64,000 nucleotides of DNA from a virus. Its lineage: Duplodnaviria; Caudoviricetes. Of this stretch, positions 36,992 through 60,494 are shown piece by piece. The stretch spans positions 1-64,000 of the IMG/VR virus record IMGVR_UViG_2837218921_000006. One strand, 5' to 3'. The number at the start of each line of letters is the position of its first letter. Position 1 is the first letter of the stretch. The notes beneath the pieces were generated by a model. It saw only the letters and a list, made by a program, of their open reading frames with translations. It did not search any database and was not told the DNA's origin. The translations under genes and the position numbers were made by a program.

Positions 36992-37016
36992 AACGAAATT
37001 ATAACACTGTTAGAAT

Positions 37017-37889
37017 ATGATTACAACAGACGTCAAAAACAAAATCCTCGCCGCAATCAAGGCGAACCGCGCCAACTATCCGAGTGACGCGAAACACGCC
37101 GCCTCACTCGGCATCACGACCTCGGTTTACAGCGCGGTCAAGAACGGGCAGACCGACCGGGTTCTGAGCGATGCCAACTGGATAAGCATCGCCCGTAAGC
37201 TCGGAGTCAGCCTCCGGGGTGAAATCGAATGGAAGGTCGCCAAGACCCCGACCTTCATGTTCATCACGGCGCAGTTGGAGGCCTGTCAGTCGAGCGGCAT
37301 CAGCGCAATCCTCTGCGACCAGCCCAATATCGGCAAGACTTTCACCGCACGGCACTATGTCAAGACGCACCCCAACGCCATCTACATCGACTGCTCGCAG
37401 GTAAAGACCAAGCTCAAGCTCGTGCGCAAAATTGCCGCTGAGTTCGGTGTCGATAGCAAAGGCCGGTACTCGGATGTGTATGAAGACCTCGTTTACTACC
37501 TCGGCTCCATCGACTGCCCCCTCATCATTCTTGACGAGGCTGGAGACCTTCAGTATGAAGCCTTCCTCGAACTCAAGGCACTGTGGAACGCCACCGAGCG
37601 ATGCTGCGCATGGTACATGATGGGAGCCGACGGACTCAAGGAGAAAATCAACCGATCCATCGAGTGCAAGAAGGTCGGCTACACTGAGATGCTCAGTCGC
37701 TACGGTGATCGCTACAGCAAGGTTACGCCGGATGACAGCAAAGAGCGCACCAAGTTCCTCATTGAACAGGCGCGGATCGTTGCCAAGCTCAACGCACCGG
37801 AAGGCATCGATGCCGGGGAGATTGCCCGGAAGACGGGTGGCGGACTTCGCCGAGTTTACACTGAAATCGAAAAACTTAAAAGACAATGA
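37017..37889 (+). CDS. MuB-like AAA+ transposition ATPase
   Basis: N-terminal HTH; DQPNIGKT, IILDEAG, GGLRRV. Confidence 0.88.
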   Translation: MITTDVKNKILAAIKANRANYPSDAKHAASLGITTSVYSAVKNGQTDRVLSDANWISIARKLGVSLRGEIEWKVAKTPTFMFITAQLEACQSSGISAILCDQPNIGKTFTARHYVKTHPNAIYIDCSQVKTKLKLVRKIAAEFGVDSKGRYSDVYEDLVYYLGSIDCPLIILDEAGDLQYEAFLELKALWNATERCCAWYMMGADGLKEKINRSIECKKVGYTEMLSRYGDRYSKVTPDDSKERTKFLIEQARIVAKLNAPEGIDAGEIARKTGGGLRRVYTEIEKLKRQ

Positions 37890-40707: not shown

Positions 40708-40710
40708 CGC

Positions 40711-42078: not shown

Positions 42079-42951
42079 TTATGCGGCGTTGTCGGGAGGA
42101 AGGTCGGGTATCGTGAACAGCATGATGTCCGTGTACCGGGCATTGTAGTTCATCGTCGCTTTAAACTCCCTCCTTTGACAACGGGCAAACGGGTCGCCGA
42201 GCGAGGGGTGGCGACCCATCCACTCGCACAGTTCGACAATGCACGATTTCTCGGAAGTAAAATAAATGAAGTTGTGTCCGGGCAGAACCGACAGCACATC
42301 GAGGTAATCGGCGAGTCGCCAATACATACGATAGGTTCCGACATCGGTGGAAAGGTATGGCGGATCAACAAGGAACACCACACCCGGAGTGTCTTTAAAT
42401 CTCTCGAACAGTTCCCGGTAATCACAGGATTCTATCTCAAGACCGGCGAGATAATCCGGGCAGGGAGCATAGTCGCTCTTACGGACATTGTTATACAATA
42501 CCTCGGAGCGCATATCTTCGATGCTCAGTTTATACTTCATAGAGAACATCAATGAAGACGAGAGCGTGATGAAGTCGAGATAACCGGACTCCTGTTCCTC
42601 CTGTTCGAGCAGTTTGAATATCTGCTCGCGAGACTCACCGGTGATAGGCTTGTGCCTGTCGAAACGGTCTGAGATAGGCCGTATAAGGGAGAGTAGCCGG
42701 TTGGTGCGCCCGATATTGTTGATGCGGTGTCGGTAGTTGTCGAAGTCGTTGTAGATCACCCTTGATTCCGGGTGGTAATATTTGGTGATGTGGGACAGTA
42801 GGCCGGAGCCGCCGAACAGATCGACAAAGACCGTACCGGGTGGATACTGTTTGATTACTTCGATGAAATGCTTTGCAAACATTCGTTTTTGTCCTACGAA
42901 TGGAAGCGGAGCGGAAAGGTATAATGTATGTGGATGATTGGATGTCGCCAT
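42079..42951 (-). CDS. Dam-like DNA adenine methyltransferase
   Basis: PFVGQK, DLFGGSG (motif I), DPPY (motif IV). Confidence 0.9.
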   Translation of the reverse strand: MATSNHPHTLYLSAPLPFVGQKRMFAKHFIEVIKQYPPGTVFVDLFGGSGLLSHITKYYHPESRVIYNDFDNYRHRINNIGRTNRLLSLIRPISDRFDRHKPITGESREQIFKLLEQEEQESGYLDFITLSSSLMFSMKYKLSIEDMRSEVLYNNVRKSDYAPCPDYLAGLEIESCDYRELFERFKDTPGVVFLVDPPYLSTDVGTYRMYWRLADYLDVLSVLPGHNFIYFTSEKSCIVELCEWMGRHPSLGDPFARCQRREFKATMNYNARYTDIMLFTIPDLPPDNAA

Positions 42952-43233
42952 TTTTTGATTGTTTAGACAATGCAAAGTTAGTGTACAGGCGACCGCAGCA
43001 CACTATCGACGTGACGAATTACACTGCAGCCGGATTGCAGTCGCTTTGGAACCGCTTGATTAGAGTATATACCTTGCGCTCTGATACTCGATAATTGGTG
43101 GCAAGGCAAGCCACCGCATACGACACCTTTTCCCCGTCGGCAACCATTTTGTTGAAGTCAACAAAAAGGTCGATGTAGTCGGCATCCTCAAGTCTAATTC
43201 CGGATTGACGGAGCCTGTTAAGCAGTTCCCGAT

Positions 43234-44770
43234 CACGGCTCTTTCATTTAACCTAAAATAAATAGCATATCTTCCCTTACCCGGTTCATTGAGAATCGGG
43301 TAATTTTTCCATGTCTGTATATCAAAGAGTTATTCTGGTATCAAAATCTTATTTTTTTCACTTTTGACTTAAAAATCGAATCAGTCTGGTAAAGCTCATC
43401 GAGATATGTCTGATCAGTTCGGCTATGCCTTTATTCTTATCTGATTGTTTCTTGCGAAGTCCTTTCCATATTGAGAACACCGAGTAAACTATTCTTTGTA
43501 TGGTATCGAGGTTTCTGGCGGCTCTCGTCGACTTGCGTTTTATATTGTCCTGCTGAAGATTGTAGTCCAGCCCCCAGTGCATACTTTCTATTGACCAATG
43601 GTTGCGCACGAAGATTCCTGGCTTCGGAGTATGCGTAGGCATACTGCTGACGTACAGGCGTTTTTCTGAGGTGTGTACTCCTGTTGACTTTTTGACTGTG
43701 GACGATTCATACTCTATGATGGTCATGTTTCCGCCCCATTTCTTCTTGTCTGCGATAATGTCCAGTCCGTCATATACGCGGTAGGTTCTCGTCTCTATCC
43801 TGCCGTGGGCCAGTTCGGGACCTTCGGTGTAAGAATATACCGGTGTGTGTTCCACTAGCCTGTCCTCAATGCCGTATCGCAATGACGGCTGGTTGGCTTT
43901 GAGTTCTATCAGAAAGTCTCCGCCTTTCTTTCTGATTTTCTCGACAATATCCTTCTGCATAGACATTGCGTCGGCTGTGACAATCTTTCCTGCGACATCT
44001 ATTTTATCAAGAAGTATCGGTATGGCCTTTATCTCGTTGCTCTTTTCCTGACAGGCTTCGGTGGCGATTGTTATGCCGGTGCTGAACGAATAGGCAGAGA
44101 CGATATCCGGGCTTCGCCCGTTTTCCTGAACGGTGCCGCGCTCGGCTTTGCCGTCAATGCAGATTATTTCAATGATGCGGCTGGCGCAAGTAAGTCTTTC
44201 AAGGAATATGTCTGCGAACTGCTGCATCCTGTCGGCCATATCCATATCGTTGATGCCGTTCTCCACACGGCAAAGCGTGGCCTCAGATGGTACGCCGTTC
44301 CTTAACAGGCCCATTTTGTGTAATTTGTTGAGGTTGTATCTGCCGAACTCCAATATCTCGGCTCGTCCGATGCATCCGGCCATACGTCCGAGTATCATCA
44401 GCATGATGATATCGTTGAGGCTGTGACGGAAATTGCCTTTGTCCAATCTACGGAAATCCGGCACGGATGAGGCAAACGCTCGAAGTTCTTCCATGATACT
44501 GCGCCTTGTGTCAAATTTATTGTGTACTTTTGCGGTATGATCAGGCGCATAGGCGTCAGTCGAACAGACTTGGTCAAGTGGCTTCATTTTTTTTGGCGTA
44601 ACTCTTTGATTATCACCTATAAAGTTACTAAAAATCTGCCACTTGGCCAAATTTTCATTGCACTTATTTTCTTGAAAATCAGAGGTTAAAGCCTCTCCAC
44701 CCGTACTGCTCTCGCTATAAAATAACACATTTGTCGAGAATGAGACGAAATCTTAAATGAAAGAGCCGTG
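43234..44770 (-). mobile_element. ISAs1 family insertion sequence
   Basis: 18-bp IR CACGGCTCTTTCATTTAA; 9-bp TSD GTTCCCGAT at 43225-43233 and 44771-44779. Confidence 0.95.
43358..44587 (-). CDS. ISAs1 transposase
   Basis: IDGK, KSNEI, VTADAM, KANQ, HGRIETR, RNHWSIE motifs; start uncertain. Confidence 0.93.
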   Translation of the reverse strand: MKPLDQVCSTDAYAPDHTAKVHNKFDTRRSIMEELRAFASSVPDFRRLDKGNFRHSLNDIIMLMILGRMAGCIGRAEILEFGRYNLNKLHKMGLLRNGVPSEATLCRVENGINDMDMADRMQQFADIFLERLTCASRIIEIICIDGKAERGTVQENGRSPDIVSAYSFSTGITIATEACQEKSNEIKAIPILLDKIDVAGKIVTADAMSMQKDIVEKIRKKGGDFLIELKANQPSLRYGIEDRLVEHTPVYSYTEGPELAHGRIETRTYRVYDGLDIIADKKKWGGNMTIIEYESSTVKKSTGVHTSEKRLYVSSMPTHTPKPGIFVRNHWSIESMHWGLDYNLQQDNIKRKSTRAARNLDTIQRIVYSVFSIWKGLRKKQSDKNKGIAELIRHISMSFTRLIRFLSQK

Positions 44771-44833
44771 GTTCCCGATTGAATTTCAGTATTTCAAATA
44801 TGGTCATGTCCCGAAAAATTATTAAATTTGCAG

Positions 44834-44963: not shown

Positions 44964-44983
44964 TCCCCCGATGGGCAGATGGG

Positions 44984-45469
44984 TCAGTTCACTCGGTAGA
45001 GTTCCAAGTCAATCGCATCCTTGGCATTCCAACCGTCGAGCAGCGTCTTCTGAACGAACTGCATTGCGCCGGTGTAGAAGGCTGTCAAGGTGTCAAGGGT
45101 CTCGAAGGTGACATATTCCGGATTGTCATCATCTCCGAGCTTGAAGGTTACGGGCAATGTCGCTCCGGCAGTCTGAACCGCGAGGTCGTAAGCGGCCTTA
45201 TAGTTAAACTGATTTTCGGTGGAGAGCCACACCATTTTGCCATCGTATCGATAGCCGGAGAGAATTCGGGAATCGGTCTGAGAGTTTATCCAACCGCTGA
45301 TGATGGATTTGATTTCCTCCTCGGATGGCTTATGGTTGAATTCTTCCTCCATGTAAGAGGTGATGCCGGATTCATCGACGGACACGTCCCAACGGACACG
45401 CCATTTGTTTCTTACCGGGTTTGTACACTCAAGCAGAGCGACATCGGGATTGCCTTGGACTCGTTTCAT
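44984..45469 (-). CDS. DUF4376-like protein directly downstream of DGR RT
   Basis: VWLSTENQFNYKAAYDLA..LPVTFKLG; 2 nt after RT stop. Confidence 0.72.
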   Translation of the reverse strand: MKRVQGNPDVALLECTNPVRNKWRVRWDVSVDESGITSYMEEEFNHKPSEEEIKSIISGWINSQTDSRILSGYRYDGKMVWLSTENQFNYKAAYDLAVQTAGATLPVTFKLGDDDNPEYVTFETLDTLTAFYTGAMQFVQKTLLDGWNAKDAIDLELYRVN

Positions 45470-45471
45470 GT

Positions 45472-46776
45472 TTAAGTAAAGACGTATTTGGTTTTACCTT
45501 TGCCGAAGGTCTCCGCCTTGATGGTGGTCTCGAAAGGGAAACCGTCCGGCATTTCACTAACTTGTTGGAGGATGTTTTTCATCTCCTCCGAGTTGGTGAA
45601 GAACTTCTTCTGTTCACCGTTCTGCTCGATGGCGACAACGCAGCGGTCTTCACCCTGCGAGGTCTTGACACCCATCTCGAAGTCGCGGACTACGATGGGA
45701 AGGTTCACCAGTTCCCGGATACTTACCACCGCTCCGGGGAATCGCTTCTTGCCGTCATCAGGCTTGTAAGCGACATTGAGGTCTTTGAATGATTTCATTT
45801 CTATGCCTGTTAATTTGTTAAAGAGATTATTACATTGCGCGTGCTTGGCCATTCCGTAGAACGAGGCAACAAGCACACGTCGTCTTTTACGACTTTTCAC
45901 CTCGCCCATCTTCCGGGCGAACTTTTTCTTTATGCGCTTGCGGATGAGCGCATGGTCGGGATAGATGACGTATCCCAAAAAATCAATACCCTCGGTTACC
46001 GGGAAGACACGCTCGTTATATTTTATCTTGAGTCCGATGCATTCCACGCACTCGTGAATGATGTCCCGGATTCTCCACAGTTCCTCTTTGGTAGAGGCAA
46101 GAACGGCACCATCATCACAGTATCGATAATAGAAAGGCACTCCGAGACGGTCTTTAAGAATGTGATCGAGGTGAACCGACAGTAGCAGGTTGCAAAGTCC
46201 TTGGGAACTTCTCAAGCCTATACTCACCCCGGAAGGCATCATACGGATGAACCGCTCAAGTATCACAATCAATTTCTCATCCTTGAAGATGCGCCGGACG
46301 CAATTGATAATGGACTGCTGACTGACGCTCTCATAAAACTTTGAGATGTCGAACTTGTAGCAGAACCGGGTCTCATCCGGGTGTTCCCGGAGATCACGCT
46401 CGATGTAAGCCTTGAGGTCGTGCATACCGCGACCTTTGATGCTTGCCGAAGTCGTGCGGATGAAGCGGCGTTTCAGATGCTCATCGACAACAGACATCAC
46501 AGCATGGACGGCGATGCGGTCTTTCATCGTGAGAACCTGTATGTGCCGTTCTTTGCCGCCCTCGATGATTGTGCGTTCCCTGTAACCACCGGCGATGAAA
46601 TAGCTGCCGTCGGCAATCTGAGCCGAGAGTTCCGCTATCACCTCCTCCCGGTGTGCCAATAGCCAACGACCCTGTCGGCTCCGCTTCCGGCTTGTGCCTC
46701 GCAGAACTTGGTCGAATGACTGTGCCATATTTGGATAAGCGACAATCTCCTCTATGATATGTCCTTCTCGACGCAT
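45472..46776 (-). CDS. DGR-type reverse transcriptase with ~105-aa C-terminal extra domain
   Basis: KER.I, DRIAVHA, KGRGMH, KFDISKFY, GVSIGLRSSQ, YYRYCDD, GIDFLGY; ATG 46776. Confidence 0.93.
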   Translation of the reverse strand: MRREGHIIEEIVAYPNMAQSFDQVLRGTSRKRSRQGRWLLAHREEVIAELSAQIADGSYFIAGGYRERTIIEGGKERHIQVLTMKDRIAVHAVMSVVDEHLKRRFIRTTSASIKGRGMHDLKAYIERDLREHPDETRFCYKFDISKFYESVSQQSIINCVRRIFKDEKLIVILERFIRMMPSGVSIGLRSSQGLCNLLLSVHLDHILKDRLGVPFYYRYCDDGAVLASTKEELWRIRDIIHECVECIGLKIKYNERVFPVTEGIDFLGYVIYPDHALIRKRIKKKFARKMGEVKSRKRRRVLVASFYGMAKHAQCNNLFNKLTGIEMKSFKDLNVAYKPDDGKKRFPGAVVSIRELVNLPIVVRDFEMGVKTSQGEDRCVVAIEQNGEQKKFFTNSEEMKNILQQVSEMPDGFPFETTIKAETFGKGKTKYVFT

Positions 46777-46982
46777 GGTGCGGAGCGTTTTAGAAATTTG
46801 TAACAACAGGCTCCTTGAGCCTTCCTTCTCTGAGTCCGGGTTCTTCGAGCTTTCGCCTACCAAACCCTACTCGTTCACTTGGTGTTCCGGCTTTCCGGCT
46901 TTCGCCGCTGTTGCCGAGGCTCATCCCTCTCGGCACCTCGGTGGGAACACGTTCCCGGTGATGTATGCCGATTGTTGGTTGT

Positions 46983-47094
46983 CCAGCCGCGAGCCGACAT
47001 TCGTGTTCGCATTCGAAGCATCGTTATTCGCATTCGCGTACGACACGCCGCCATTCGCATTCGCGTTGTTGTTGCCGCGATAGACCACACGGCC
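46983..47094 (-). ncRNA. DGR template repeat (TR)
   Basis: Reads GRVVYRGNNNANANGGVSYANANNDASNANTNVGSRL with 11 AAC/AAT codons and a GC-rich end GTCGGCTCGCGGCTG; lies upstream of RT. Confidence 0.92.
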
Positions 47095-47121
47095 TATTGA
47101 GGGACTCTGCCTTTTGAACTG

Positions 47122-47129
47122 CAAATTTA
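47122..47129 (-). promoter_or_regulatory. Bacteroidetes -7 promoter element for TR-RT transcript
   Basis: TAAATTTG (TAnnTTTG) about 30 nt upstream of TR. Confidence 0.6.
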
Positions 47130-47159
47130 CTCATAATTTGGCGTTCAGCAGTGAACATA

Positions 47160-47393
47160 TCAAATTATAAGCCAAAACACAGCGGCGATGGCACCTCCGG
47201 CAACGGTAAGAATCCAATCGACCCAATCCCAATAGCAGCCGTGTAGCCTGTCTTTCAACTCAAGACATGACGCCGCCACTACCGAGGCGTATATGGCCGG
47301 GATAGCACCAAGGGCAAACAGCCCTACGAGAAGACCGCCAATGAGGTGCTTGTAGCGGTTGGAGGTCTTGAGGAATAATAAAATCTTGTCCAT
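47160..47393 (-). CDS. Small membrane protein
   Basis: 77 aa, hydrophobic helices, HLIGG..ELKD..WDWVDW. Confidence 0.7.
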   Translation of the reverse strand: MDKILLFLKTSNRYKHLIGGLLVGLFALGAIPAIYASVVAASCLELKDRLHGCYWDWVDWILTVAGGAIAAVFWLII

Positions 47394-47432
47394 AAACTTT
47401 TGTATGTCAGAAATTGTTTGTATTTTTGCATT

Positions 47433-47502
47433 CAAGAATCGCACTGTGTGTGGGCTAAACTTGCGTAAAGCATAAGGGGTCGCCACAGTCGGTTCTTTTT
47501 TT
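47433..47502 (+). ncRNA. Candidate small RNA convergent on MuF gene end
   Basis: TATTTTTG at 47421-47428; AAGAATCG-C-ACTGTG...CACAGT-CGGTTCTT stem followed by T-tract. Confidence 0.5.
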
Positions 47503-48802
47503 ATTGTATGGCATCTGTTATCGAATACAGGAATCGGTCATGTCTGATTTTGCCGGTACGCGATATGATGTCGGTCTCTCCGACATTGAGATAGACCTTC
47601 CTGCCGTGCAGTTCAGCCTCATAGTAGTAGAATCTCTCGATGCGGTCGCGGCGTGGTTTTGATTTCGCCACTTTTTTTATGAATTTCGCTCCGGCCAAAA
47701 GAGAATCAAGCGAGGCGAGATCATCTTTAGTCAGTACGGAACTTCTCCCGAAAGTATCGGCATATAAATGCTTGTTCCCATATTTGGAGAATCCGACATT
47801 CATAGGATGGCCGTTGCCGTTGACAGAAATTTTCTTTGTAAGGAGCGGTTCCATCTCACGCATATAATGCTTTTTGACAACGGCACTTTCGGATTTTGAA
47901 AGGTCGTTGTAACACTCATTTATAATGGCACACGCCTCGCACAGACTGTTCATCGGCCTAAATGCGAATTTCCGTTTGTTTATATCGCAGTCCCGGCAGC
48001 GGCGTATAGTGTATGGATTGTAGTCCGGCACCGTCTTTTGCTCAAGTCCGGGATTGAATCGGAATATTCCTTTGCTGTCGCGTTGCAGAGCCTCGTCGCC
48101 AAGCCTCATCGCCTCCGCGTGGGATGTCGCCGGATACTTTGACTTGCGAACCTGTACGACAGTGCATCGGCAGTTCCATCCATTCGGAGGATAGAACTCC
48201 GCCCAAAACGGGTCAGACGGAGGCAGGGTCACACCATCGAGGGCGGCGTGTTCCGGGCGAACCTTATCATCCTTTTGAGTTCGGTATTGGAGATTGTATC
48301 GGTCTCCATCCTGCATGAATCCTTCCCATTTAGCAGCCATTTCTGCCGAAGCGGTGACAAAGTTATACTCAGCCCGGAGGTAGTTTGCATTATAGGTTTG
48401 GTCGATGCTTCGAACATCGTTCAAAAAGCGTTCAAACGATTTTCGTTCGCCGTTCTCATCTACAAGTGAGGGGAAAGCCTCGTTGAGTTCGTGGAATGTT
48501 TTAATGCCAGAGAAAATAAAGTCCGAGCGGTGGAGCCTTTTGCGCATGGCATCGGACATCTTGACTTGCTCGAATGACGAGTCAAGGGCAGACGCATGGC
48601 TCTTGATGAATTCCCGGACTTGCGGAGTGGATAGAATATCGATGGAGAGCTGCGCACCTTCAGTTTTATACACAGCCTTCATCATTCCGTTGAACAGAAC
48701 GGAGAGCTGCTTGCGTATTTCGTCCTCACGCTCTTTGCGCCCGGCCATGAACACCTCCGGCATATCCTTGAGCAGACGGGCATAGCGTTCATGCAGCCCC
48801 AC
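47501..48802 (-). CDS. Phage head morphogenesis protein (Mu gpF) with C-terminal extension
   Basis: DDKVRPEHAALDG..FWAEFYPPNGWNCRC; about 130-aa basic C-terminal domain. Confidence 0.88.
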   Translation of the reverse strand: MGLHERYARLLKDMPEVFMAGRKEREDEIRKQLSVLFNGMMKAVYKTEGAQLSIDILSTPQVREFIKSHASALDSSFEQVKMSDAMRKRLHRSDFIFSGIKTFHELNEAFPSLVDENGERKSFERFLNDVRSIDQTYNANYLRAEYNFVTASAEMAAKWEGFMQDGDRYNLQYRTQKDDKVRPEHAALDGVTLPPSDPFWAEFYPPNGWNCRCTVVQVRKSKYPATSHAEAMRLGDEALQRDSKGIFRFNPGLEQKTVPDYNPYTIRRCRDCDINKRKFAFRPMNSLCEACAIINECYNDLSKSESAVVKKHYMREMEPLLTKKISVNGNGHPMNVGFSKYGNKHLYADTFGRSSVLTKDDLASLDSLLAGAKFIKKVAKSKPRRDRIERFYYYEAELHGRKVYLNVGETDIISRTGKIRHDRFLYSITDAIQ

Positions 48803-48816
48803 ATAGTCAGTGGGGC

Positions 48817-50154
48817 TTAGTCGAAAAAAGGTCTGCCGTTCTTTTGCTTGCCCTTATCATCCGCCTTCGTGTCATCGCCATCTTCCCCATCACCTCCGGG
48901 TGGTATGATTGGTGCGGTCTCCCGACGGTCTCCCACAGGCATGCCGTATTTGTCGGCAAAGTATGAAGGGTCAACATCGAAATTGTTGAGAACCATAGTC
49001 TCGTATGCAATCTGTTGTTCCGGGGTATAATCCACTGCATCGTCCCATTCAAAGCGCAAGCCTTTGAGGGGGAAACCGTGCTTGATCATCCGGGGAATAA
49101 GCTGATTGTTCACGATGTCGCGGAGCATATCGCGGTCGGACTCCACAAGGTTCTCGAAAACCTGCAAGTGTGTTTCTGACTGCGACAGTGAAGAACCGTC
49201 CTCAATGGTCATGGTCTGGCCGATGGTCAGTTTCGACAGTTCCGAATTGGCACGGTCAATGCGCTTGTCATATACATTGAAGGCATCGCCTTTGCCGGAT
49301 TCGACAAACTGAACTTCCGTCTCCATGCCGGTCACCATGCCGAGATTGCTTCCGGCTTCCTGTATCATCTGCTCAAGGCGTTTCCACTCCTTTGGGTCGC
49401 GTGTTGTTGTCTTTGCGACACGCATAGGCATACCGAATATTTCGGCAAAGGCATCCCAAAACGCGAGTGCGTTCTTTTTGGGTATTGTCTGTTGTGCCGC
49501 TTTGAGGAAGAGTCCGAGATCATCGGGTTGTCCGGCTTCTATCAACCAATCCGAATATGGCCTTTCGTGGTAGTCTATGCCCGAAGTCCAGTCATCCCCT
49601 ACATTTTGGACACAGCGGTGATACTCCGAGATAACGTGCTTGCGAGGTATAAGCCGGACACCGTCATAAGACAGGCACCCGTCCCCGTCCTGCGTGAGCT
49701 CTCCGAGTTCAATCAATGAGTGGCCGAACCACAACGAATCGTGGCACAGGCGCAGAAGCTGTTTGAACCAGGATTGATCGAAATAATGCATGGCAGACTC
49801 ATCCTCGTCGCCGGATTCATTGACGAGCTTAAACGAGCGTGACATTACGAACCCTCGCCGCTGCTCGATACAGCCGGAGAGGTGGAGGTCAACGGCAACG
49901 TCCCTGTAAATGTCATAAAGACGCTGCCGGTTAGGGTTGTCAACATTTATTGCGAGCTGCCATGCCGCCCTCCAATCCGCTATGTCCTTTCGCGTCAGTG
50001 CATCGGTAGTCCGATGTATGTCCATGACGATGCTCTGAAACTTTGCCCGGTCTTTCGGCTTGGCAAGATTCAGTTCTCCGTATGGGGTCTGGAGTATCAT
50101 GGGGTCGCTCTTTTTGGAGCGGAAGTTCTCAAGGAATTTGTCGAGTACGCCCAT
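48817..50154 (-). CDS. Portal protein (DUF935 / Mu gp29-like)
   Basis: FAEIFGMPMRVAK, ELSKLTIGQTMT, VNNQLIP. Confidence 0.88.
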   Translation of the reverse strand: MGVLDKFLENFRSKKSDPMILQTPYGELNLAKPKDRAKFQSIVMDIHRTTDALTRKDIADWRAAWQLAINVDNPNRQRLYDIYRDVAVDLHLSGCIEQRRGFVMSRSFKLVNESGDEDESAMHYFDQSWFKQLLRLCHDSLWFGHSLIELGELTQDGDGCLSYDGVRLIPRKHVISEYHRCVQNVGDDWTSGIDYHERPYSDWLIEAGQPDDLGLFLKAAQQTIPKKNALAFWDAFAEIFGMPMRVAKTTTRDPKEWKRLEQMIQEAGSNLGMVTGMETEVQFVESGKGDAFNVYDKRIDRANSELSKLTIGQTMTIEDGSSLSQSETHLQVFENLVESDRDMLRDIVNNQLIPRMIKHGFPLKGLRFEWDDAVDYTPEQQIAYETMVLNNFDVDPSYFADKYGMPVGDRRETAPIIPPGGDGEDGDDTKADDKGKQKNGRPFFD

Positions 50155-50158
50155 AGTA

Positions 50159-50575
50159 TTACCAATTATGACGGAGCCGTGGCTCCGAGTGAAATATTGT
50201 GCCGTTCATGACGGGAGTGTGCTCTTCCTCAATCAGCGGCAAGTCCGGGATGATTTTGCCTGACTGAACACCCTCAAGCCATTCGATAGCCCGTTCATAA
50301 CGCTCCTTGCGTATCTCGATACCCATCTTCTGAGGGAGTGAGGCAACAAGATGATAGAGGGCTATGTCGGCAGTCCGCATGACAATAAGCCTGTTCCGGG
50401 CATCCCCTTCGGCTGAAAAAATCGCCTCGCAATCATAGACAGGACGCAGATACCCGGAGATTTCCTCGATTGCCTCAAGTTCCGCGTTGGCGCGGTTTTC
50501 CTCAGAGGCACGTGAGATAACCTTGAGCGCATCTTCGCCTATGACCACGGCGTAGTCGGTGTCGGTGATAAACAT
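50159..50575 (-). CDS. Head-tail adaptor (Mu gp36 / DUF1320-like)
   Basis: EISGYL..DIALYHL..RYERAIEWLEGVQSG. Confidence 0.82.
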   Translation of the reverse strand: MFITDTDYAVVIGEDALKVISRASEENRANAELEAIEEISGYLRPVYDCEAIFSAEGDARNRLIVMRTADIALYHLVASLPQKMGIEIRKERYERAIEWLEGVQSGKIIPDLPLIEEEHTPVMNGTIFHSEPRLRHNW

Positions 50576-50585
50576 GATGCTGAAG

Positions 50586-50816
50586 TTAAGTTGTTACGAA
50601 AAGAGCGTGTCTCTCGATATCCTCGACGGTCACGCCTTTGCGGAACCGTTTGCGCTTGATAAGTTCCTTGATTGTCTGTTTCGGGACGACTTTGAGAGAG
50701 CCGCCGAGGTTGATGACGTAATACTTCCTGCCGAACAGTCCGGCGAGTTTTTTTGCTTTGCGCACGGCTCTCTTGAAACGCCATGCGGCATAATACTTTT
50801 TGATGGTCTTGAACAT
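50586..50816 (-). CDS. Small basic phage protein
   Basis: ATG 50816 coupled to terminase stop. Confidence 0.65.
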   Translation of the reverse strand: MFKTIKKYYAAWRFKRAVRKAKKLAGLFGRKYYVINLGGSLKVVPKQTIKELIKRKRFRKGVTVEDIERHALFVTT

Positions 50817-50817
50817 A

Positions 50818-52386
50818 TCACCATGAATTTTTAGGGTGCCGACGCGGTATCGACACCGGTTTGAATGTCTCTTGTCTCGTGCTTCGCTGTAGAAACCATA
50901 TAGCACCTTCGTCTGCGTCCGGCGCGTCATCATGGACACGGGAGCCACGTTCAAGTGCAAGAGTCTGCTCTATGCCTACCTCCATGTCCGGGGTACCCTT
51001 GAGAGCTTCGTTGTAGAATACGAATCCACGCTCCCACAGAGGCGAGACCGCCTCGATGCGTTGAATCTTCTCTGGCTTTTTTCGGGTGTCCGGCATGATT
51101 GGCAGCTGATAGCCGCGAATGTTTCCTTCAGTCGCAAACTCATCGAGGATAATATCCTGCATAAAATTCGCCTCCATATAGAATGTCACTACGACATTCT
51201 CCGGCAAACTTTCATAGAGGTTGTATAGCCAACGCACCATCCCGGAAACGGTATCCTGTCGGACGTATGTGTCGATAAGGTGCAGCTCGGTTCCTATCTT
51301 ACCCCACAGGCGACACGCCTTGTAGTCATTGGCTGTGGTCGACTTGAAAGACGGGTCGGTGTAGCAGACAAGCATATCGTACTTGTCGAGTTTGGGCATA
51401 CGCTTGAACCGAATCCATTCATGCCTGAAGATGGTGCCGTCCGTGATGGGGTTGTGCATCATCTCCTTTTCCCATGCCCTGTATCCGACAAAATCCTTAT
51501 ATTCCTGTGCTTCCTCCTTAGTCCATTTTTCAGCCCATACAGGGTTCCCATCGCTGTCAACGGCCTTTATCTCGGACACATGAACACCTTTGGAAGCGGC
51601 AATATTGGCAAGCACAGAGTTTTTGGAGATAAGGTTGCCGACCATGATAAAACGACCACGGCCAACGTCGAGCGCACCGAACAGAGCCTCCTTCACCCAA
51701 TCGGTCAAATCTTTTATACGCTTTTCATTCCGGCATATCTCGTCATCGTCCAAGTCATCGATGACAATATAGTCCGGGCGAGCCTCGCGGTCACGGAGAC
51801 CACGGGGAGACTGTCCACGGCCAACAGCGAGGAACTTGGCACCGCCCTTGGTCTTGAATTCCCCCTCAAGCCAAGAACCGAGGTTTTTTTGCTCGCCGAA
51901 GTCAGCGATCAATTTCTGATTGAATTCAAGTTCGGCCTGTAAATCGCCGAGCAGACGTATTGCGTTGTCCTCGGACTTGCCGACGGTTATCATAAAATTG
52001 ATGAGTCTCTTCGGTTGGAAAATAAGCCAAAGAGGAATGAACACACCGATATGGGTTGACTTGGCATGACCTCTCGGCCATTTGAACACAGCCTTGAGGT
52101 TGGGGGTATTCCTTATCTTCAGAGCGGCCTTCGTGTGGAATGGAGCGTTGTGTATCGTCTTGATGATCTCGCCGGTTGTCTTGTCGCGCAATGTAAGGAA
52201 ATGGGCGAAGTAATACTCGCAGAACTCGTCATAGTTCGAGAGCAGCCGCTTTATGCGCCTGTCGCGTTCAACCGGGGTCTCTTTGGCGATAGCCATAGAC
52301 ACAGCCGTCAGCGTCTGAACCTCCCGGCAATGTTCCTGCCACCGTTCAAACGCCTCCTTCTGCTCTTTTGTCCATTTAGTCGCCAT
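50818..52386 (-). CDS. Terminase large subunit
   Basis: PRGHAKST Walker A, IVIDDLDD, YTDPS, HDDAPDA nuclease motif. Confidence 0.92.
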   Translation of the reverse strand: MATKWTKEQKEAFERWQEHCREVQTLTAVSMAIAKETPVERDRRIKRLLSNYDEFCEYYFAHFLTLRDKTTGEIIKTIHNAPFHTKAALKIRNTPNLKAVFKWPRGHAKSTHIGVFIPLWLIFQPKRLINFMITVGKSEDNAIRLLGDLQAELEFNQKLIADFGEQKNLGSWLEGEFKTKGGAKFLAVGRGQSPRGLRDREARPDYIVIDDLDDDEICRNEKRIKDLTDWVKEALFGALDVGRGRFIMVGNLISKNSVLANIAASKGVHVSEIKAVDSDGNPVWAEKWTKEEAQEYKDFVGYRAWEKEMMHNPITDGTIFRHEWIRFKRMPKLDKYDMLVCYTDPSFKSTTANDYKACRLWGKIGTELHLIDTYVRQDTVSGMVRWLYNLYESLPENVVVTFYMEANFMQDIILDEFATEGNIRGYQLPIMPDTRKKPEKIQRIEAVSPLWERGFVFYNEALKGTPDMEVGIEQTLALERGSRVHDDAPDADEGAIWFLQRSTRQETFKPVSIPRRHPKNSW

Positions 52387-52864: not shown

Positions 52865-52960
52865 GTTGATAATGATTTTGCGCGGTTACATTTCGGCAAG
52901 CATGATGGTGTCGAGCCGAAAAACTATGCAAATTTGGAGAGTTCACGCCTAAGAGCAAAA

Positions 52961-53006
52961 AAAGTGTGCAACGGTTTCATACAAGTGTGCAACCGTTGCA
53001 CACTTT
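52961..53006. promoter_or_regulatory. Repeat operator between divergent late operons
   Basis: 16-bp IR AAAGTGTGCAACGGTT (52961-52976 / 52991-53006) plus an internal third copy at 52983. Confidence 0.7.
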
Positions 53007-53065
53007 CTTGTCGGGCAGAGGATTACGTCGTAATATTGCACCGAATTTCAAACGCAACGACCGCA

Positions 53066-54010
53066 ATGGGAAAAAGAGTAAGAATGACTGATGACAGTCT
53101 CAACAGCCACGGAAGCCGGGTATTGACAGCCGGGTGTGACACCGCACAATATGAGCGGAACCCTGTGCTGCTGTACATGCACGAGCGCGGCAAGGTCATC
53201 GGTTACATGAAGGACATCGAGGTCAAGAATGGCGAGATCAGCGGCGAGCCGGTCTTCGACTGCGCGACTGAATTGTCCAAGCAGTGTAAAAAACAATGGG
53301 AGGTAGGTTCTCTCCGAATGGTCAGCATCGGAATCGATGTCCTTGAGCTTAGTGAAAAGCCGGAACATCTCGTTGCCGGGCAGACTGCGCCGACCATTAC
53401 GAAGAGCAAGATCTTCGAGACCTCCATAGTTGACATCGGAGCCAATGACAATGCCATAGTCATGCGCCACAACGGAAAGCAGATAACGCTGGGCAGGGAC
53501 AGCGAAAATCCCCTGCCTATGCTCAGTAATAAACCTCAAACAACAAAACAACAAATGGAACTCAAGACCATCGCCCTCAAACTGGGTTTGCCGGAAACGG
53601 CTGACGAGACCGCCGTGCTTGCAAAAATCGGCGAGCTGAACCTTACTGCCGCAGAAGTGGAGCAGCTCAAAAAAGACAAGGATGCGCTGACTCTCTCGCA
53701 GGTTACTTCTGCCGTCGAGACCGCCATCAAGGAAAACCGTCTCACACCCGATAAGAAGGAACATTTCATCAACCTTGGCAAGACAATCGGCATCGACAGT
53801 CTCAAGGCGACCCTCGACGCAATGACCCCGGCGGCAAAGCTCAGTAAAACCATCACTCCGTCTAACGGTAGCACACCCCCTGCCGGTCAGAAGACCTACA
53901 ACAAGTTCCGCGAGGTTCCCGAAGATGAACTCCGCAAAATGCGCAGCGAGAATCCGACAGAATATCGCCGTCTCTTCAAAGCCGAATATGGCTACGATTG
54001 CAACATCTAA
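53066..54010 (+). CDS. Prohead protease / scaffold
   Basis: NPVLLYMH..VSIG..ETSIVDIGAN; Mu gpI-like C-terminal scaffold IALKLGLPETADE. Confidence 0.85.
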   Translation: MGKRVRMTDDSLNSHGSRVLTAGCDTAQYERNPVLLYMHERGKVIGYMKDIEVKNGEISGEPVFDCATELSKQCKKQWEVGSLRMVSIGIDVLELSEKPEHLVAGQTAPTITKSKIFETSIVDIGANDNAIVMRHNGKQITLGRDSENPLPMLSNKPQTTKQQMELKTIALKLGLPETADETAVLAKIGELNLTAAEVEQLKKDKDALTLSQVTSAVETAIKENRLTPDKKEHFINLGKTIGIDSLKATLDAMTPAAKLSKTITPSNGSTPPAGQKTYNKFREVPEDELRKMRSENPTEYRRLFKAEYGYDCNI

Positions 54011-54025
54011 CCAAAAATATCAACA

Positions 54026-55120
54026 ATGATGAAAACAGCATCCAAAACCATCTGCGCTCTGCTTTTCAATATGCTCATGGGCGCAATCATCGCAACGCTT
54101 CTCGGCGTTCCCCCTCTCGTCGGTATGCTCTTCATGGTGGCCATAGGCATCACCATGAGCTTCGCGCCGGTCCCCAAAGGCGCACTCCGTGCCGGAGTCT
54201 ATACCGAGGTATGGACAGGCGAGCTTGTGAAAGGACTCCGCGAGTTCCTAACAGGCTCATGGCTCGACGGTGTTCCTGACCAATCGTCTATCGTCAACAA
54301 CGATGTCATCCACCTTGTAGAAGTGGGTGTTGACCCCGATGTCCTCATCAATAACACGACCTATCCGATTCCGCTTCAGGCACTCGAAGATAAGGATATC
54401 GCCATCTCGCTCGACAAATTCCAGACAAAGGTCACTCCCGTCACCGACGATGAACTGTATGCCATTTCGTATGACAAGATGTCCCGTGTCAAGGAAAGCC
54501 ATGCCAACGCCCTCAGCGATGCTAAATTCGCAAAAGCGGCACACGCACTGTGCGCACAGGAGAATACAGACAAGACACCCGTCCTTAAGACTACCGGCGC
54601 AGCAGACCCCACAACAGGCCGACATCGTCTTACCCTTAACGACCTAATCAGTCTGAAAGAGGCTCTCGACAACCTCAAGGTGCCGGCCTCGAATCGTCGT
54701 CTTGTCCTTTGCCCCGACCATGTAAACGACCTGCTGCGTTCCGAGCAGACATTCCGTGAGCAGTTCAATATCAACCGCAATACCGGCACTGTCGGCAATC
54801 TGTATGGCTTTGACATCTATACTTACGGAGACAACCCTGTCTATACAACCGCCGGTAAGAAAAAGGCAGTCCAAGCAGCTGCAAGTGCAGGTGAATTCCA
54901 GTGTTCATTTGCCTTCTATGTTCCCCGTGTGTTCAAGGCTACCGGCTCCACAAAGATGTATTACAGCGAGGCTTCGACCGACCCCGAATACCAGCGTAAT
55001 AAAATCAACTTCCGCCATTACTTCATCGCAATGCCTAAGAAGGCTGATGCCGGTGCTGTAATGATGAGTGGCTATACCGCTCCGACTACAGGTGGCGGTA
55101 CACAGACTGAAGGTAAGTAA
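54026..55120 (+). CDS. Major capsid protein with hydrophobic N-terminal leader
   Basis: Follows protease; EVWTGEL, LDNLKVP..RRLVL, GNLYGFDIY capsid-like motifs. Confidence 0.78.
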   Translation: MMKTASKTICALLFNMLMGAIIATLLGVPPLVGMLFMVAIGITMSFAPVPKGALRAGVYTEVWTGELVKGLREFLTGSWLDGVPDQSSIVNNDVIHLVEVGVDPDVLINNTTYPIPLQALEDKDIAISLDKFQTKVTPVTDDELYAISYDKMSRVKESHANALSDAKFAKAAHALCAQENTDKTPVLKTTGAADPTTGRHRLTLNDLISLKEALDNLKVPASNRRLVLCPDHVNDLLRSEQTFREQFNINRNTGTVGNLYGFDIYTYGDNPVYTTAGKKKAVQAAASAGEFQCSFAFYVPRVFKATGSTKMYYSEASTDPEYQRNKINFRHYFIAMPKKADAGAVMMSGYTAPTTGGGTQTEGK

Positions 55121-55123
55121 CGC

Positions 55124-55627
55124 ATGGCAAGACTCAAGTATCTTGTAATTCACTGCACCGCCACCCCGGAGGGTCGTGATGTGTCCGCCGCAGACATACG
55201 GCGTATGCATTGCTCCCCGGTGAGTGCCGGTGGCAGGGGATGGAAGCAGGTAGGCTACACAGACCTGTTCCGGCTCGACGGCACAGTCGAGCGTCTTGTG
55301 AATAATAACGAGGATGCCAATGTCGATCCGTGGGAAGTTACCAACGGAGCCAAGGGCTACAACTCCATCAGCCGACACATCGTGTATGCAGGTGGCTGTG
55401 ACGAGTCTATGAATCCGAAGGATACCCGGACAGCGGCTCAGAAAAAAGCAATGGCCGCTTACGTCCTCAATTTCCACCGCCGGTTCCCCGATGTCAAGAT
55501 CATAGGACACCGCGACCTGTCGCCCGACCTTAACGGCAATGGCATCATCGAACCCTTCGAGTTTATGAAAGCGTGTCCGAGCTTTGAAGTTTCGGAGTGG
55601 CTTAAATCTATCGGCATCAACCAATAA
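55124..55627 (+). CDS. Endolysin, N-acetylmuramoyl-L-alanine amidase (T7 lysozyme-like)
   Basis: VIHCTAT, GHRDLS, KACPSF. Confidence 0.92.
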   Translation: MARLKYLVIHCTATPEGRDVSAADIRRMHCSPVSAGGRGWKQVGYTDLFRLDGTVERLVNNNEDANVDPWEVTNGAKGYNSISRHIVYAGGCDESMNPKDTRTAAQKKAMAAYVLNFHRRFPDVKIIGHRDLSPDLNGNGIIEPFEFMKACPSFEVSEWLKSIGINQ

Positions 55628-55646
55628 TCAACAAATCCGAGTGGCT

Positions 55647-56144
55647 ATGACATTCAGTGAAATTCTTAACATACTTCTTGGCGGTGGCTTCCTTGCCTTA
55701 ATGGTGGGTGTCATTACGCTCAAGGCGACAGTCCGAAAGGCCAACGCCGATGCCGAGAGAGCAAAGGCCGATGCCGAAAGTGTGCGCATCACCAACACTG
55801 AGAACGCCACCCGGATTCTTGTAGAAAACATCGTCAAACCTTTAAAAGAGGAACTCAATGCAACCAGAGAAGACCTACAGGCAACGAAAAAGGAGATGGC
55901 CTCTACCAAGAGAGAGATGGCGCGTCTCCGCAAGGCTGTCGAAGCTGCTTCCGGCTGTCCTCATTCCGATGGCTGTCCTGTGCTGCGTAAGTTGCGCGAC
56001 AACCAAAAAGACACAGACGGAACAGATTCAGGCAGTGCAGACGGTAGAGAAGCACGATACCATAACAGTGATAAGGCAGATACACAAGGAGACGGTGCCG
56101 ATGAGTCAGGCTCGGATAACCGTATCCGTGGACAGCCTCCTTAA
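55647..56144 (+). CDS. Holin-like single-TM coiled-coil protein
   Basis: N-terminal TM, coiled coil, follows endolysin. Confidence 0.65.
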   Translation: MTFSEILNILLGGGFLALMVGVITLKATVRKANADAERAKADAESVRITNTENATRILVENIVKPLKEELNATREDLQATKKEMASTKREMARLRKAVEAASGCPHSDGCPVLRKLRDNQKDTDGTDSGSADGREARYHNSDKADTQGDGADESGSDNRIRGQPP

Positions 56145-56448
56145 ACTCCCGGCAGGAGCGTCGTACCATAAGCGCAGCGGTCAAGCCGGAGCCGAGGTCT
56201 CCTTAAGAGGCGACACAATCTTCGTCACCGCGACCTGCGACAGTCTTCAGCGCGAAGTGGAATATTACGAGGAGCAATACCAAGCCACCCTCGAAGCTCT
56301 CGACAACCTCAAGGAGAGCGTTCAAACGGAGCGCGAACACCGTTCAAATCCAATTAAAATCGCATTGGCGGCATTTATTGCCGGACTGTTTGTCGGCGTA
56401 CTCTCAACAATAATCATCTTATCAAAATCCCGATATGGAAAAAAATAA
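55858..56448 (+). CDS. Unimolecular-spanin-like lipoprotein
   Basis: Hydrophobic stretch + CVSC lipobox; C-terminal TM IALAAFIAGLFVGVLSTIIIL; start uncertain. Confidence 0.65.
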   Translation: MQPEKTYRQRKRRWPLPRERWRVSARLSKLLPAVLIPMAVLCCVSCATTKKTQTEQIQAVQTVEKHDTITVIRQIHKETVPMSQARITVSVDSLLKLPAGASYHKRSGQAGAEVSLRGDTIFVTATCDSLQREVEYYEEQYQATLEALDNLKESVQTEREHRSNPIKIALAAFIAGLFVGVLSTIIILSKSRYGKK

Positions 56449-56932: not shown

Positions 56933-56938
56933 TAACGT

Positions 56939-60382: not shown

Positions 60383-60494
60383 TGGAAAACCCAGGCTCGG
60401 ATGACCCCTTAGACCAAGGTTGAATTGACCCCTGAAAATATTTTGAATTGACCCCTGAAAACGTTCTGGCCGACGGGGTCAATTTTATTTTGTC

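What the first reader, a model, noticed from the sequence alone, without database searches (positions are those of the whole stretch)
46983..47094. Intact DGR with no variable repeat in the window: orphaned or trans-acting
Seen: I found no second TR-like copy and no ORF ending in a G-x-R-L CLec-type terminus; the prophage stops inside the tape measure gene, ahead of where distal tail/receptor-binding genes should lie. RT and TR look undamaged. Inference: the target was remote from the cassette and was deleted or relocated, or this RT/TR now diversifies a target on another prophage or a host gene.
Basis: partly seen in the sequence, partly recalled or inferred. Interest (0 to 1): 0.75.

Follow-up and report, generated by a model that had tools for sequence, protein, structure and literature searches.

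The report
Orphaned template half of phage DGR
This is the template-plus-enzyme half of a known kind of phage mutagenesis device whose target gene normally lies 26 kb away in the same prophage, and here that target was lost when a mobile element cut the prophage short, so the finding is real but ordinary.

Summary
A DGR template repeat (TR, 47101-46983, minus strand) and a full-length RT (46776-45472) lie in a Mu-like, Hankyphage-related prophage. No variable repeat (VR) exists in the window or in the whole 85,394-bp record, which is all that is held of this genome.

In this Muribaculaceae/Bacteroidales phage clade, TR-RT natively sits beside the Mu F head gene. The VR lies 25.6-26.1 kb away on the opposite strand, at the 3' end of a ~2,300-aa tail gene. 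17 of 17 assessable relatives have it, and the TR/VR differences are almost all at TR adenines.

Here homology to intact relatives stops at 60383, inside the tape measure gene, at the end of an IS21 element. That element has no target-site duplication and an unrelated right flank. The distal tail genes and the target are therefore missing.

The trans-acting reading could not be tested because the host genome is not held. In the relatives' genomes this TR type has only its own phage VR.

The scan noted the 26-kb split design before, on other DNA (e1-3977387). Verdict: an orphaned half-DGR in a truncated prophage, of low to moderate interest.

The parts
46983..47101 (-). Template repeat (TR), 119 nt, 29 adenines
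   Evidence: It is 95-98% identical to the TRs of relatives that have a VR partner. The limits are set by the TR/VR homology in relatives.
47122..47129 (-). TAAATTTG, a possible Bacteroidetes-type -7 promoter box about 20 nt upstream of the TR (inferred)
   Evidence: The sequence is shown. The TAnnTTTG consensus is recalled and comes from no call. The same word stands upstream of the TR in G010. This is weak evidence.
46777..46982 (-). TR-RT spacer (206 nt)
   Evidence: It aligns at 83-96% identity with the same region of the relatives with RT identity of about 70% or more. No structure analysis was done.
45472..46776 (-). DGR reverse transcriptase, 434 aa, with a fused ~105-aa C-terminal domain (residues ~330-434 of the 434-aa protein)
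   Evidence: In the 463-aa ORF searched, the C-terminal part (residues 356-462) matches PHROG 19665 (E 5e-21).
44984..45469 (-). DUF4376 gene that follows the RT, as in Hankyphage p00
   Evidence: Pfam DUF4376 (E 4.5e-7). 60% aa identity to p00 40032-40523.
43234..44770 (-). ISAs1-family insertion sequence (1,537 bp): a simple insertion with 18-bp inverted repeats and a 9-bp duplication GTTCCCGAT (43225-43233 and 44771-44779)
   Evidence: NCBIfam transpos_ISAs1 at 228 bits against a cutoff of 70. It is absent at this site in the relatives aligned.
42079..42975 (-). N6-adenine DNA methyltransferase. It belongs to the module that lies at the right end of p00 and here lies inverted between the early genes and Mu F.
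47160..47486 (-). Small membrane-like protein between Mu F and the TR (PHROG 38535). It is not an Avd.
   Evidence: No Pfam or NCBIfam match.
47501..52386 (-). Head and packaging block: Mu F-like (47501-48802), Mu portal (48817-50154), gp36-like adaptor (50159-50575), large terminase (50818-52386)
34988..37889 (+). Mu A-like (34988-36991) and Mu B-like (37017-37889) transposition genes
52934..57415 (+). Protease/scaffold, major head protein, amidase and proximal tail genes
57648..60383 (+). Tape measure gene, 5' part only (about 912 codons). The reading frame runs 21 nt into IS21 before a stop.
60381..63037 (-). IS21-family element (istA 61264-62811, istB 60495-61280) with 36-bp perfect terminal inverted repeats, no target-site duplication and an unrelated right flank. 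This is the breakpoint of the prophage.

Best explanation
The element is the TR-RT half of a Hankyphage-type, Avd-less diversity-generating retroelement.

In this clade of Mu-like Muribaculaceae/Bacteroidales prophages the DGR is natively split. The TR, spacer and RT lie next to the Mu F head gene. The VR lies about 26 kb away on the opposite strand, at the 3' end of a ~2,300-aa tail protein gene near the phage's right end. In an intact phage, the RT copies the TR RNA into cDNA with errors at adenines, and that cDNA replaces the distant VR. This step is inferred from the family. DGR activity was shown experimentally for Bacteroides Hankyphages, not for this clade.

In this window the prophage is cut inside the tape measure gene at an IS21 element. 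The last ~380 codons of the tape measure gene, two tail genes and the VR-bearing target are absent from the record. The cassette can at most still make cDNA but has nothing to home into, so it is an orphan in a defective prophage.

Shown: the anatomy, the native split design, the breakpoint, and the absence of a VR from 85 kb. Inferred: that the missing part is gone from the cell, and that the RT is still active.
For: (1) RT and TR identity and integrity.

(2) The split design is native. Of 62 RT loci fetched, 54 hold a TR. Of those, 37 have a Mu F homologue 0.3-1.8 kb upstream of the TR and no second TR-like copy within about 10 kb. 14 have a classical adjacent VR, and 3 are too short to judge. 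The 13 loci printed are colinear with window 35-57 kb.

(3) In 20 relatives' whole records or genomes searched with the window's TR, 17 have a cognate VR. 16 of these are on the same contig, 25.6-26.1 kb away on the opposite strand; one of those has a run of N as its core. One has the VR on another contig. In the other 3, the contig ends before the expected site.

(4) TR/VR differences lie mostly at TR adenines: 9/9, 10/10, 9/10, 8/10 and 13/15; 7/8, 10/11 and 9/14.

(5) Homology to intact relative G001 ends at window 60383, which is G001 27834, inside a 1,295-aa tape measure gene. Nothing else in the 85-kb record matches G001's right 20 kb except the TR against its VR.

(6) The breakpoint is the end of an IS21 element with 36-bp perfect inverted repeats, no duplication and a non-tape-measure right flank. 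All matches in 36 of 401 family genomes stop at that same position.

(7) In 4 of 4 public runs from 4 studies, a contig carrying the window-like 5' part of the tape measure gene ends 26-27 letters past that breakpoint.

(8) In the RT tree the window lies inside a starred clade (100/99) of 20 split-type rows. 8 loci with broken or short RT matches were left out of that tree.
Against: Only this 85-kb record of the genome is held, so absence of a VR from the cell is not shown.

The join from IS21 to the right flank has no independent support. Exact 40-mers of the junctions found nothing: the right-junction word in metagenome contigs, and the left-junction word in metagenome contigs and viral contigs (the window's own record may be left out there). 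The public contigs break at the IS. A mis-join at a repeated IS, or an IS21-mediated relocation, would look the same.

The RT and TR show no decay (98% aa identity to intact relatives). Window 56500-63500 is held by 22 runs of 13 studies. That fits a recent loss, but it also fits a cassette that is still used.
Confidence: 0.65

Rival explanations
1. The DGR is still complete in the cell. The distal tail module with the VR lies elsewhere in the same genome, either moved by IS21-mediated inversion or translocation, or only apparently separated because the assembler joined the wrong flank across a repeated IS21. The TR-RT would then still rewrite its own tail gene, from a greater distance.
For: IS21 is a repeat. 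One family genome (G323) has at least two 99%-identical copies. Public contigs break 26-27 nt into it in 4 of 4 runs. There is no target-site duplication at the IS, which a mis-join or recombination between two copies would also produce. The RT and TR are undecayed. This DGR clade already works over 26 kb and across strands, so distance is no bar.
Against: The record runs on for 22 kb beyond the IS21 into unrelated mobile-element DNA: integrases, AbiEii, a type I R-M system and relaxases. It holds no phage tail remnant. No positive trace of the missing part with window-like similarity was seen.
Confidence: 0.2
2. The cassette is trans-acting. Having lost its own target, the TR-RT diversifies the VR of a related Hankyphage-like phage that co-resides in or superinfects the same cell, or a host gene with a matching VR.
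For: DGR components work in trans: avd-TR-brt supplied from a plasmid, as cited in the passages read from Wu et al. 2018, PMC5758913. The TRs of related phages are 95-98% identical to this one, including the 3' end. The same gut communities hold a second related prophage with a target and VR, and a TR whose downstream 30 nt differ at one position (tables 5, 7, 8). The cassette is intact and widespread.
Against: No VR-like sequence lies in the 85 kb held. In the relatives' genomes searched, the only adenine-specific partner of this TR type is the phage's own tail gene. The extra TR-like copies aligned (79% identity; G006 and G008) differ at G, T and C, keep the AAC codons, and are therefore templates of other DGRs; G151's was not aligned. 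The contig depths of the second prophage do not track those of the window-type contig across runs (20 vs 105-135 in X15; 34 vs 24-28 in X20). That is a weak hint that it sits in another organism.
Confidence: 0.08

Closest known systems
DGR of Bacteroides/Phocaeicola Hankyphage p00 (BK010646.1; Benler et al. 2018, PMC6199706, passages read; DGR activity shown in B. thetaiotaomicron Hankyphages, PMC12135933, passages read)
   Same: The RT is 72.4% identical over 94% of its length. The module order TR, spacer, RT, DUF4376 gene ... N6 methyltransferase is the same. No Avd homologue was found. The phage chassis is Mu-like, with the Mu F/portal/terminase block divergent from the capsid and tail block. 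In relatives the target is a >2,200-aa tail protein with a C-terminal VR.
   Different: In p00 the VR lies 255 nt upstream of the TR at the phage's right end. In this clade the TR-RT-methyltransferase module lies inverted between the early genes and Mu F, 26 kb from the VR. Most other proteins are only 25-60% identical. This copy has lost the target altogether.
Phage-associated DGRs with only a non-adjacent target (Wu et al. 2018, NAR 46:11, PMC5758913; passages read)
   Same: [quoted passage not shown] This is the same design as the clade found here.
   Different: I did not see their supplementary table, so I cannot say whether those two are members of this clade. The window's copy has no target at all in the DNA held.
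Bordetella phage BPP-1 DGR (paradigm; known to me from the passages)
   Same: TR-templated, adenine-specific rewriting of a C-terminal VR in a tail fibre gene.
   Different: BPP-1 has Avd and an adjacent VR. Here there is no Avd, the RT carries a fused C-terminal domain, the target is remote in relatives, and there is no target in this copy.
Cellular DGRs with remote targets (Treponema denticola and others; PMC5758913 passages, PMC4891356 seen in the search listing only)
   Same: The TR-RT acts on VRs that are not adjacent.
   Different: Those are non-phage DGRs with several targets more than 100 kb away. Here there is one target, inside the same phage, in relatives.

Membership tests
Diversity-generating retroelement (DGR) | Reverse transcriptase of the DGR lineage | tested here: met
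   Pfam RVT_1 and PHROG 1423. 72.4% identity to the p00 DGR RT. It sits in the RT tree among elements with TR/VR pairs. IGLRSSQ and YCDD are present; that these motifs mark DGR RTs is recalled. No NCBIfam model reached its cutoff.
Diversity-generating retroelement (DGR) | Adenine-rich template repeat next to the RT | tested here: met
   119-nt TR with 29 A, lying 206 nt upstream of the RT start.
Diversity-generating retroelement (DGR) | Variable repeat in a target gene that differs from the TR only at TR adenines | tested here: not met
   None in the window or in the 85,394-bp record. Present in 17 of 17 assessable relatives. The rest of the host genome is not held.
Diversity-generating retroelement (DGR) | Accessory protein (Avd or other) | tested here: not met
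   The neighbouring small ORF (47160-47486) has no Pfam or NCBIfam match and looks membrane-embedded. There is no homologue of p00's small ORF. An accessory protein is not required for membership: 29% of DGRs lack accessory genes (PMC5758913).
Diversity-generating retroelement (DGR) | Ongoing mutagenic homing | not testable with these tools
   There is no VR to examine. Only contigs, not reads, were available for the runs.
Hankyphage-like Mu-type transposable phage | Mu A/Mu B transposition genes and Mu-type head genes (portal, Mu F, gp36) | tested here: met
Hankyphage-like Mu-type transposable phage | Complete structural module and right end | tested here: not met
   Homology ends at 60383 inside the tape measure gene. 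The distal tail genes and the target are absent from the record.
IS21 family | IstA transposase plus IstB ATPase, and terminal inverted repeats | tested here: met
   NCBIfam transpos_IS21 at 211.7 bits against a cutoff of 160. Pfam IstB_IS21 (E 2.2e-63). 36-bp perfect inverted repeats.
IS21 family | Target-site duplication flanking a simple insertion | tested here: not met
   The flanks are TCGGGAGA and TCGGAGAG / GGAGAGAG, not a duplication. The right flank does not continue the tape measure gene. This fits a deletion, a rearrangement or a mis-join.
ISAs1 family | Transposase above the curated cutoff, inverted repeats, target duplication | tested here: met
   228 bits against a cutoff of 70. 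18-bp inverted repeats and a 9-bp duplication.

The most novel reading that the evidence does not exclude
The orphan TR-RT is kept intact, and is found in many mouse-gut samples, because it still works in trans. In this reading, a defective and immobile prophage supplies mutagenic cDNA that rewrites the receptor-binding VR of related Hankyphage-like phages entering or co-residing in the cell. Those phages' templates are 95-98% identical to this one. A dead prophage would then reshape the host range of live phages. The natively split design of this clade (26 kb, opposite strand) already shows that its homing does not depend on proximity.
Probability: 0.07. Interest if true: 0.65.

Novelty: new member of a known kind. 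Interest (0 to 1): 0.25.

Why it matters
For this window it matters little. It is a truncated prophage carrying a stranded half of a known retroelement.

The wider point is modest but useful. A whole clade of gut Bacteroidales phages keeps its DGR template 26 kb from its target, on the other strand. Pipelines that look for a VR within 20 kb of the RT state that they do not detect remote targets (Roux et al. 2021, PMC8144416, passages read). They would therefore report these phages as RT-only or 'orphan' even when they are complete. This window shows what a true orphan looks like, and how to tell the two cases apart by using synteny with intact relatives.

If the stranded cassette proved to be active in trans, it would be a natural case of one phage remnant editing another phage's receptor-binding protein.

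Tried and rejected
(1) Inversion hypothesis. I first took the minus-strand terminase/portal/Mu F block facing the plus-strand capsid block for an IS-mediated inversion. I rejected this because p00 and all aligned relatives have the same divergent layout.

(2) Megablast of 44900-47500 against the phage collection gave no match. The protein search was needed.

(3) Search for the host genome.
- No genome of 401 sampled from the family spans the tape measure/IS21 junction.
- G323 and G347 carry the IS21 at 96-99% identity but hold neither the prophage nor the right flank.
- L064, with 100% identity over the last 93 RT residues, is only 86% identical in DNA.

(4) Exact 40-mers of the IS21 junctions. 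The right-junction word found 0 matches in metagenome contigs. The left-junction word found 0 matches in metagenome contigs and in viral contigs. The window's own record may be left out there.

(5) Laying public contigs on relative G001's right 20 kb.
- Beyond the breakpoint, two of four runs (X16, X20) show no cover over L076 4003-4669 (the tape measure 3' part) at 80% likeness.
- The cover further on comes from contigs with 15-20% other letters, that is, from a second and more distant prophage.
- The tool warns that a hole proves nothing, so this counts neither for nor against loss of the target.
- All four runs proved to be communities, not single isolates (0.2-1.7 million records each), so they could not stand in for the host genome.

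(6) Extra TR-like copies at 79% identity in G006, G008, G151 and G323 were considered as possible trans targets. Those aligned (G006, G008) were rejected because they differ at G, T and C and keep the adenines. G151's and G323's were not aligned.

(7) G411 at first looked like a second orphan, with no VR at E<=1e-8. Its VR is in place, but its core is a run of N.

(8) Earlier notes on this genome: none.

(9) No fold, complex or RNA-structure job was run. None would change the verdict.

Full report
WHAT IS THERE

The window is the first 64 kb of a single 85,394-bp virus record. That record is all that is held of this genome.

On the minus strand, 47101-46983 is a 119-nt template repeat with 29 adenines and 5 AAC codons. 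In frame it reads ...GRVVYRGNNNANANGGVSYANANNDASNANTNVGSRL. A 206-nt spacer follows. After it comes a 434-aa reverse transcriptase (46776-45472, ATG to TAA) with no internal stop.

- The RT matches Pfam RVT_1 (E 2.7e-14) and PHROG 1423 (E 4.8e-108).
- Its last ~105 residues match a separate PHROG (19665).
- The motifs IGLRSSQ and YCDD are present. That they are typical of DGR RTs is recalled.

An adenine-tolerant scan of both strands of the window and of the whole record finds the TR itself and nothing else. The next best places mismatch at 45-48 of 86 non-adenine positions.

THE SETTING

The cassette lies in a Mu-like prophage.

- Plus strand, early region: Mu A-like (34988-36991) and Mu B-like (37017-37889) genes, with early genes up to about 42 kb.
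- Minus-strand block: N6 methyltransferase (42079-42975), a small ORF, an ISAs1-family IS (43234-44770), a DUF4376 gene (44984-45469), the RT, the TR, a small membrane-like ORF (47160-47486), Mu F (47501-48802), portal, gp36-like adaptor and large terminase (up to 52386).
- Plus strand again: protease, major head protein, amidase, proximal tail genes and a tape measure ORF (57648-60404, 918 aa).
- Then an IS21 element.

The RT is 72.4% identical to that of Hankyphage p00. ORF-by-ORF tblastn shows synteny with p00 at 25-72% identity.

In p00 the DGR sits at the right end of the phage, in this order: giant tail ORF with VR (38049-38164), small ORF, TR (38419-38534), RT, DUF4376..., methyltransferase. 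In the window that TR-to-methyltransferase module lies inverted between the early genes and Mu F.

THE SPLIT DESIGN IS NATIVE, NOT DAMAGE

I fetched 62 loci encoding relatives of the RT: 38 from viral contigs and 24 from genomes, mostly Muribaculaceae and other Bacteroidales by their record titles. Their arrangement is as follows.

- 8 do not reach the TR.
- 54 hold a TR.
- Of those 54, 37 have a Mu F homologue 0.3-1.8 kb upstream of the TR and no second TR-like copy within the ~10 kb held on each side. All 37 have RT identity of 70% or more.
- 14 have a classical VR a few hundred nt (about 140-290 nt) upstream of the TR, with 7-18 adenine-site differences. Their RT identity is 47-55%, plus L058 at 74%.
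- 3 are too short to judge.

The 13 loci printed are colinear with window ~35-57 kb. The one exception is the ISAs1 element, which is absent from them.

In an RT tree of 34 distinct rows, the window falls inside a starred clade (100/99) of 20 split-type rows. One split-type row (L057) groups, without strong support, with the classical p00 and L058. Eight loci were left out of the tree because their best RT match was short or broken.

WHERE THE TARGET NORMALLY IS

I searched the whole records or genomes of 20 relatives with the window's TR.

- 16 have a second copy on the same contig, 25.6-26.1 kb away, on the opposite strand. One of them, G411, has matching VR edges around a run of N.
- One (G415) has the second copy at the start of another contig.
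- In three (G410, G413, G414) the contig ends before the expected place.

That makes 17 of 17 assessable. G001 and G007 carry the same VR, so the count is of records and not of independent phages.

The differences from each phage's own TR fall at TR adenines in 9/9, 10/10, 9/10, 8/10 and 13/15 positions, and in 7/8, 10/11 and 9/14. G010 has none; see 'Noticed in passing'.

In G001 the VR (40635-40753) is the C-terminal end of a 2,321-aa ORF (33856-40821). That ORF follows a 1,295-aa tape measure protein, a 155-aa tail protein and a 1,261-aa tail protein.

WHAT HAPPENED HERE

DNA homology between the record and G001's right 23.9 kb covers window 56861-58963 and 59280-60383, the latter matching G001 26731-27834. 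It then stops. The only other match is G001's VR against the window's TR.

Position 60381-60384 is the end of a 2.65-kb IS21-family element.

- It has IstA and IstB. The NCBIfam score is 211.7 bits against a cutoff of 160.
- It has 36-bp perfect terminal inverted repeats.
- It has no target-site duplication.
- Its right flank does not continue the tape measure gene.

In 401 genomes sampled from the family, 36 match the 1.4-kb junction probe. Every match covers either the tape measure side or the IS side and stops at that same position.

Beyond the IS, the record runs 22 kb through integrases, an AbiEii gene, a type I R-M locus and relaxase genes.

By contrast, the ISAs1 element downstream of the DUF4376 gene is a clean insertion with a 9-bp duplication.

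So the last ~380 codons of the tape measure gene, two tail genes, the 2,300-aa target with its VR and the phage right end are missing from the record. The prophage is defective and the DGR has no target in the DNA held.

INDEPENDENT SUPPORT AND ITS LIMITS

22 public runs from 13 studies (mouse gut metagenomes, and runs labelled 'organism A') hold 88% or more of the sampled words of window 56500-63500. I laid the contigs of four such runs (four studies) on G001's right 20 kb.

- In all four, one contig covers the shared 5' part of the tape measure gene, with 108 and 52 other letters. It ends 26-27 letters past the breakpoint, inside the IS21 repeat.
- This supports the tape measure/IS21 junction in many samples.
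- It says nothing about what lies on the far side of the IS.

The same runs hold contigs of a second, more distant prophage (15-20% other letters) that cover the distal tail genes and a VR. They also hold two TR-type loose ends behind the VR position, so related DGR phages share these communities. The contig depths of the two sets do not keep a constant ratio between runs. That is a weak hint that they lie in different organisms.

The host genome itself could not be reached.

HOW IT WORKS (INFERRED)

In an intact phage of this clade, a TR-spacer RNA is copied by the RT into cDNA with misincorporation at adenines. The RNA is possibly transcribed from a TAAATTTG box at 47129-47122; that consensus is recalled. 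The RT has no Avd and carries a fused C-terminal domain. The cDNA then replaces the VR 26 kb away.

This is the mechanism established for BPP-1. DGR activity has been shown experimentally in Bacteroides Hankyphages (PMC12135933, passages read). It has not been shown for this clade.

In this copy the first steps may still run, but there is no homing site.

RIVALS

(a) The target still exists elsewhere in the same genome, through IS21-mediated relocation or an assembly mis-join at a repeated IS. I give this 0.2. The IS is multi-copy in at least one family genome, and the right junction is unverified.

(b) Trans action on another phage's VR or a host gene. I give this 0.08. It is mechanistically possible: trans complementation is cited in PMC5758913, and related TRs are 95-98% identical. 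However, in the relatives' genomes this TR type has only its own phage VR. The 79% TR-like extras aligned (G006, G008) keep their adenines and differ at G, T and C, so they are templates of other DGRs; G151's was not aligned.

COMPARISON WITH WHAT IS KNOWN

The element is a member of the Hankyphage-type DGR lineage by its RT, TR and gene neighbourhood. It fails the VR criterion in the DNA held.

Phage DGRs with a single non-adjacent target are in print. Wu et al. 2018 note two with the only target 20 kb away, and 29% of DGRs without accessory genes (PMC5758913, passages read; supplement not seen).

Roux et al. 2021 searched for repeats within 20 kb of the RT and state that remote targets are not detected (PMC8144416, passages read). 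Intact members of this clade would therefore be missed or look orphaned.

A full-text search for DGR plus Muribaculaceae plus prophage gave one unrelated review. I cannot claim more than that about what is in print.

This scan had already noted the 26-kb detached-target design on another genome (e1-3977387), and the Avd-less RT with a fused domain (e1-3905704). My calls reproduce the first independently and the second in part.

VERDICT

The first half of the interpretation (remote target, lost) is supported. The second half (trans-acting) is untested and unlikely.

This is an ordinary decay product of a known phage family, and a new member of a known kind. Interest is 0.25.

Noticed in passing
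L084 (G010:C67:24051-27173), against L082: In one relative (a Prevotella sp. CAG scaffold) the VR-site copy is 100% identical to the TR over 152 nt. It also carries 41 nt of the TR's own 5' flank in place of 11 nt of the target gene, in frame. None of the adenines is changed. This could be an aberrant non-mutagenic homing or gene conversion event, or an assembly artefact.
   Followed up: partly
L112 (G411:C23:61201-64222): The VR core of this relative is a run of 85 N between intact VR edges, 25.8 kb from its TR. Either it is masked, or the assembler could not resolve a hypervariable stretch.
   Followed up: partly
window 43225-44779: An ISAs1-family IS (1,537 bp, 18-bp inverted repeats, 9-bp duplication GTTCCCGAT) is inserted between the DUF4376 gene and the next small ORF of the DGR module. 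It is absent in the aligned relatives.
   Followed up: yes
L089, L094 (G006); L090 (G008); G151:C21; L109 (G323): Several family genomes hold further TR-like sequences, 79% identical to this TR. Those aligned (G006, G008) keep the AAC codons and so are templates of other DGRs. Muribaculaceae genomes therefore often carry more than one related DGR.
   Followed up: partly
L001 3954-12420 (record 67954-76420): A type I restriction-modification locus (hsdR, hsdM) has three S-subunit genes or fragments on both strands and an integrase-family gene beside them. This is the layout of an invertible specificity-switching locus.
   Followed up: no
window 1-34000 and record 64-85 kb: Both sides of the prophage are a patchwork of other mobile DNA: three integrase genes, two relaxase/mobilisation modules, a DUF3987 primase-like gene, an RHS-repeat protein (21537-23948), AbiEii, and another DDE transposase. 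The 85-kb 'virus record' is therefore much more than one phage.
   Followed up: no
L025-L028, L053, L061: In these split-type relatives the best tblastn match to the RT covers only 259-360 of 434 residues. This may mean frameshifted or otherwise broken RT genes. They were left out of the RT tree.
   Followed up: no
public runs X15, X16, X17, X20 laid on L076: The same gut communities hold a second Hankyphage-like prophage (15-20% different from G001 in the tail genes) with its own target, VR and TR. Its contig depths do not track those of the window-type prophage.
   Followed up: partly
window 45472-45800 (RT residues ~330-434): The RT carries a fused ~105-aa C-terminal domain (PHROG 19665). 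Phage records annotate it as a separate hypothetical protein under the same match. This was not tested here.
   Followed up: no
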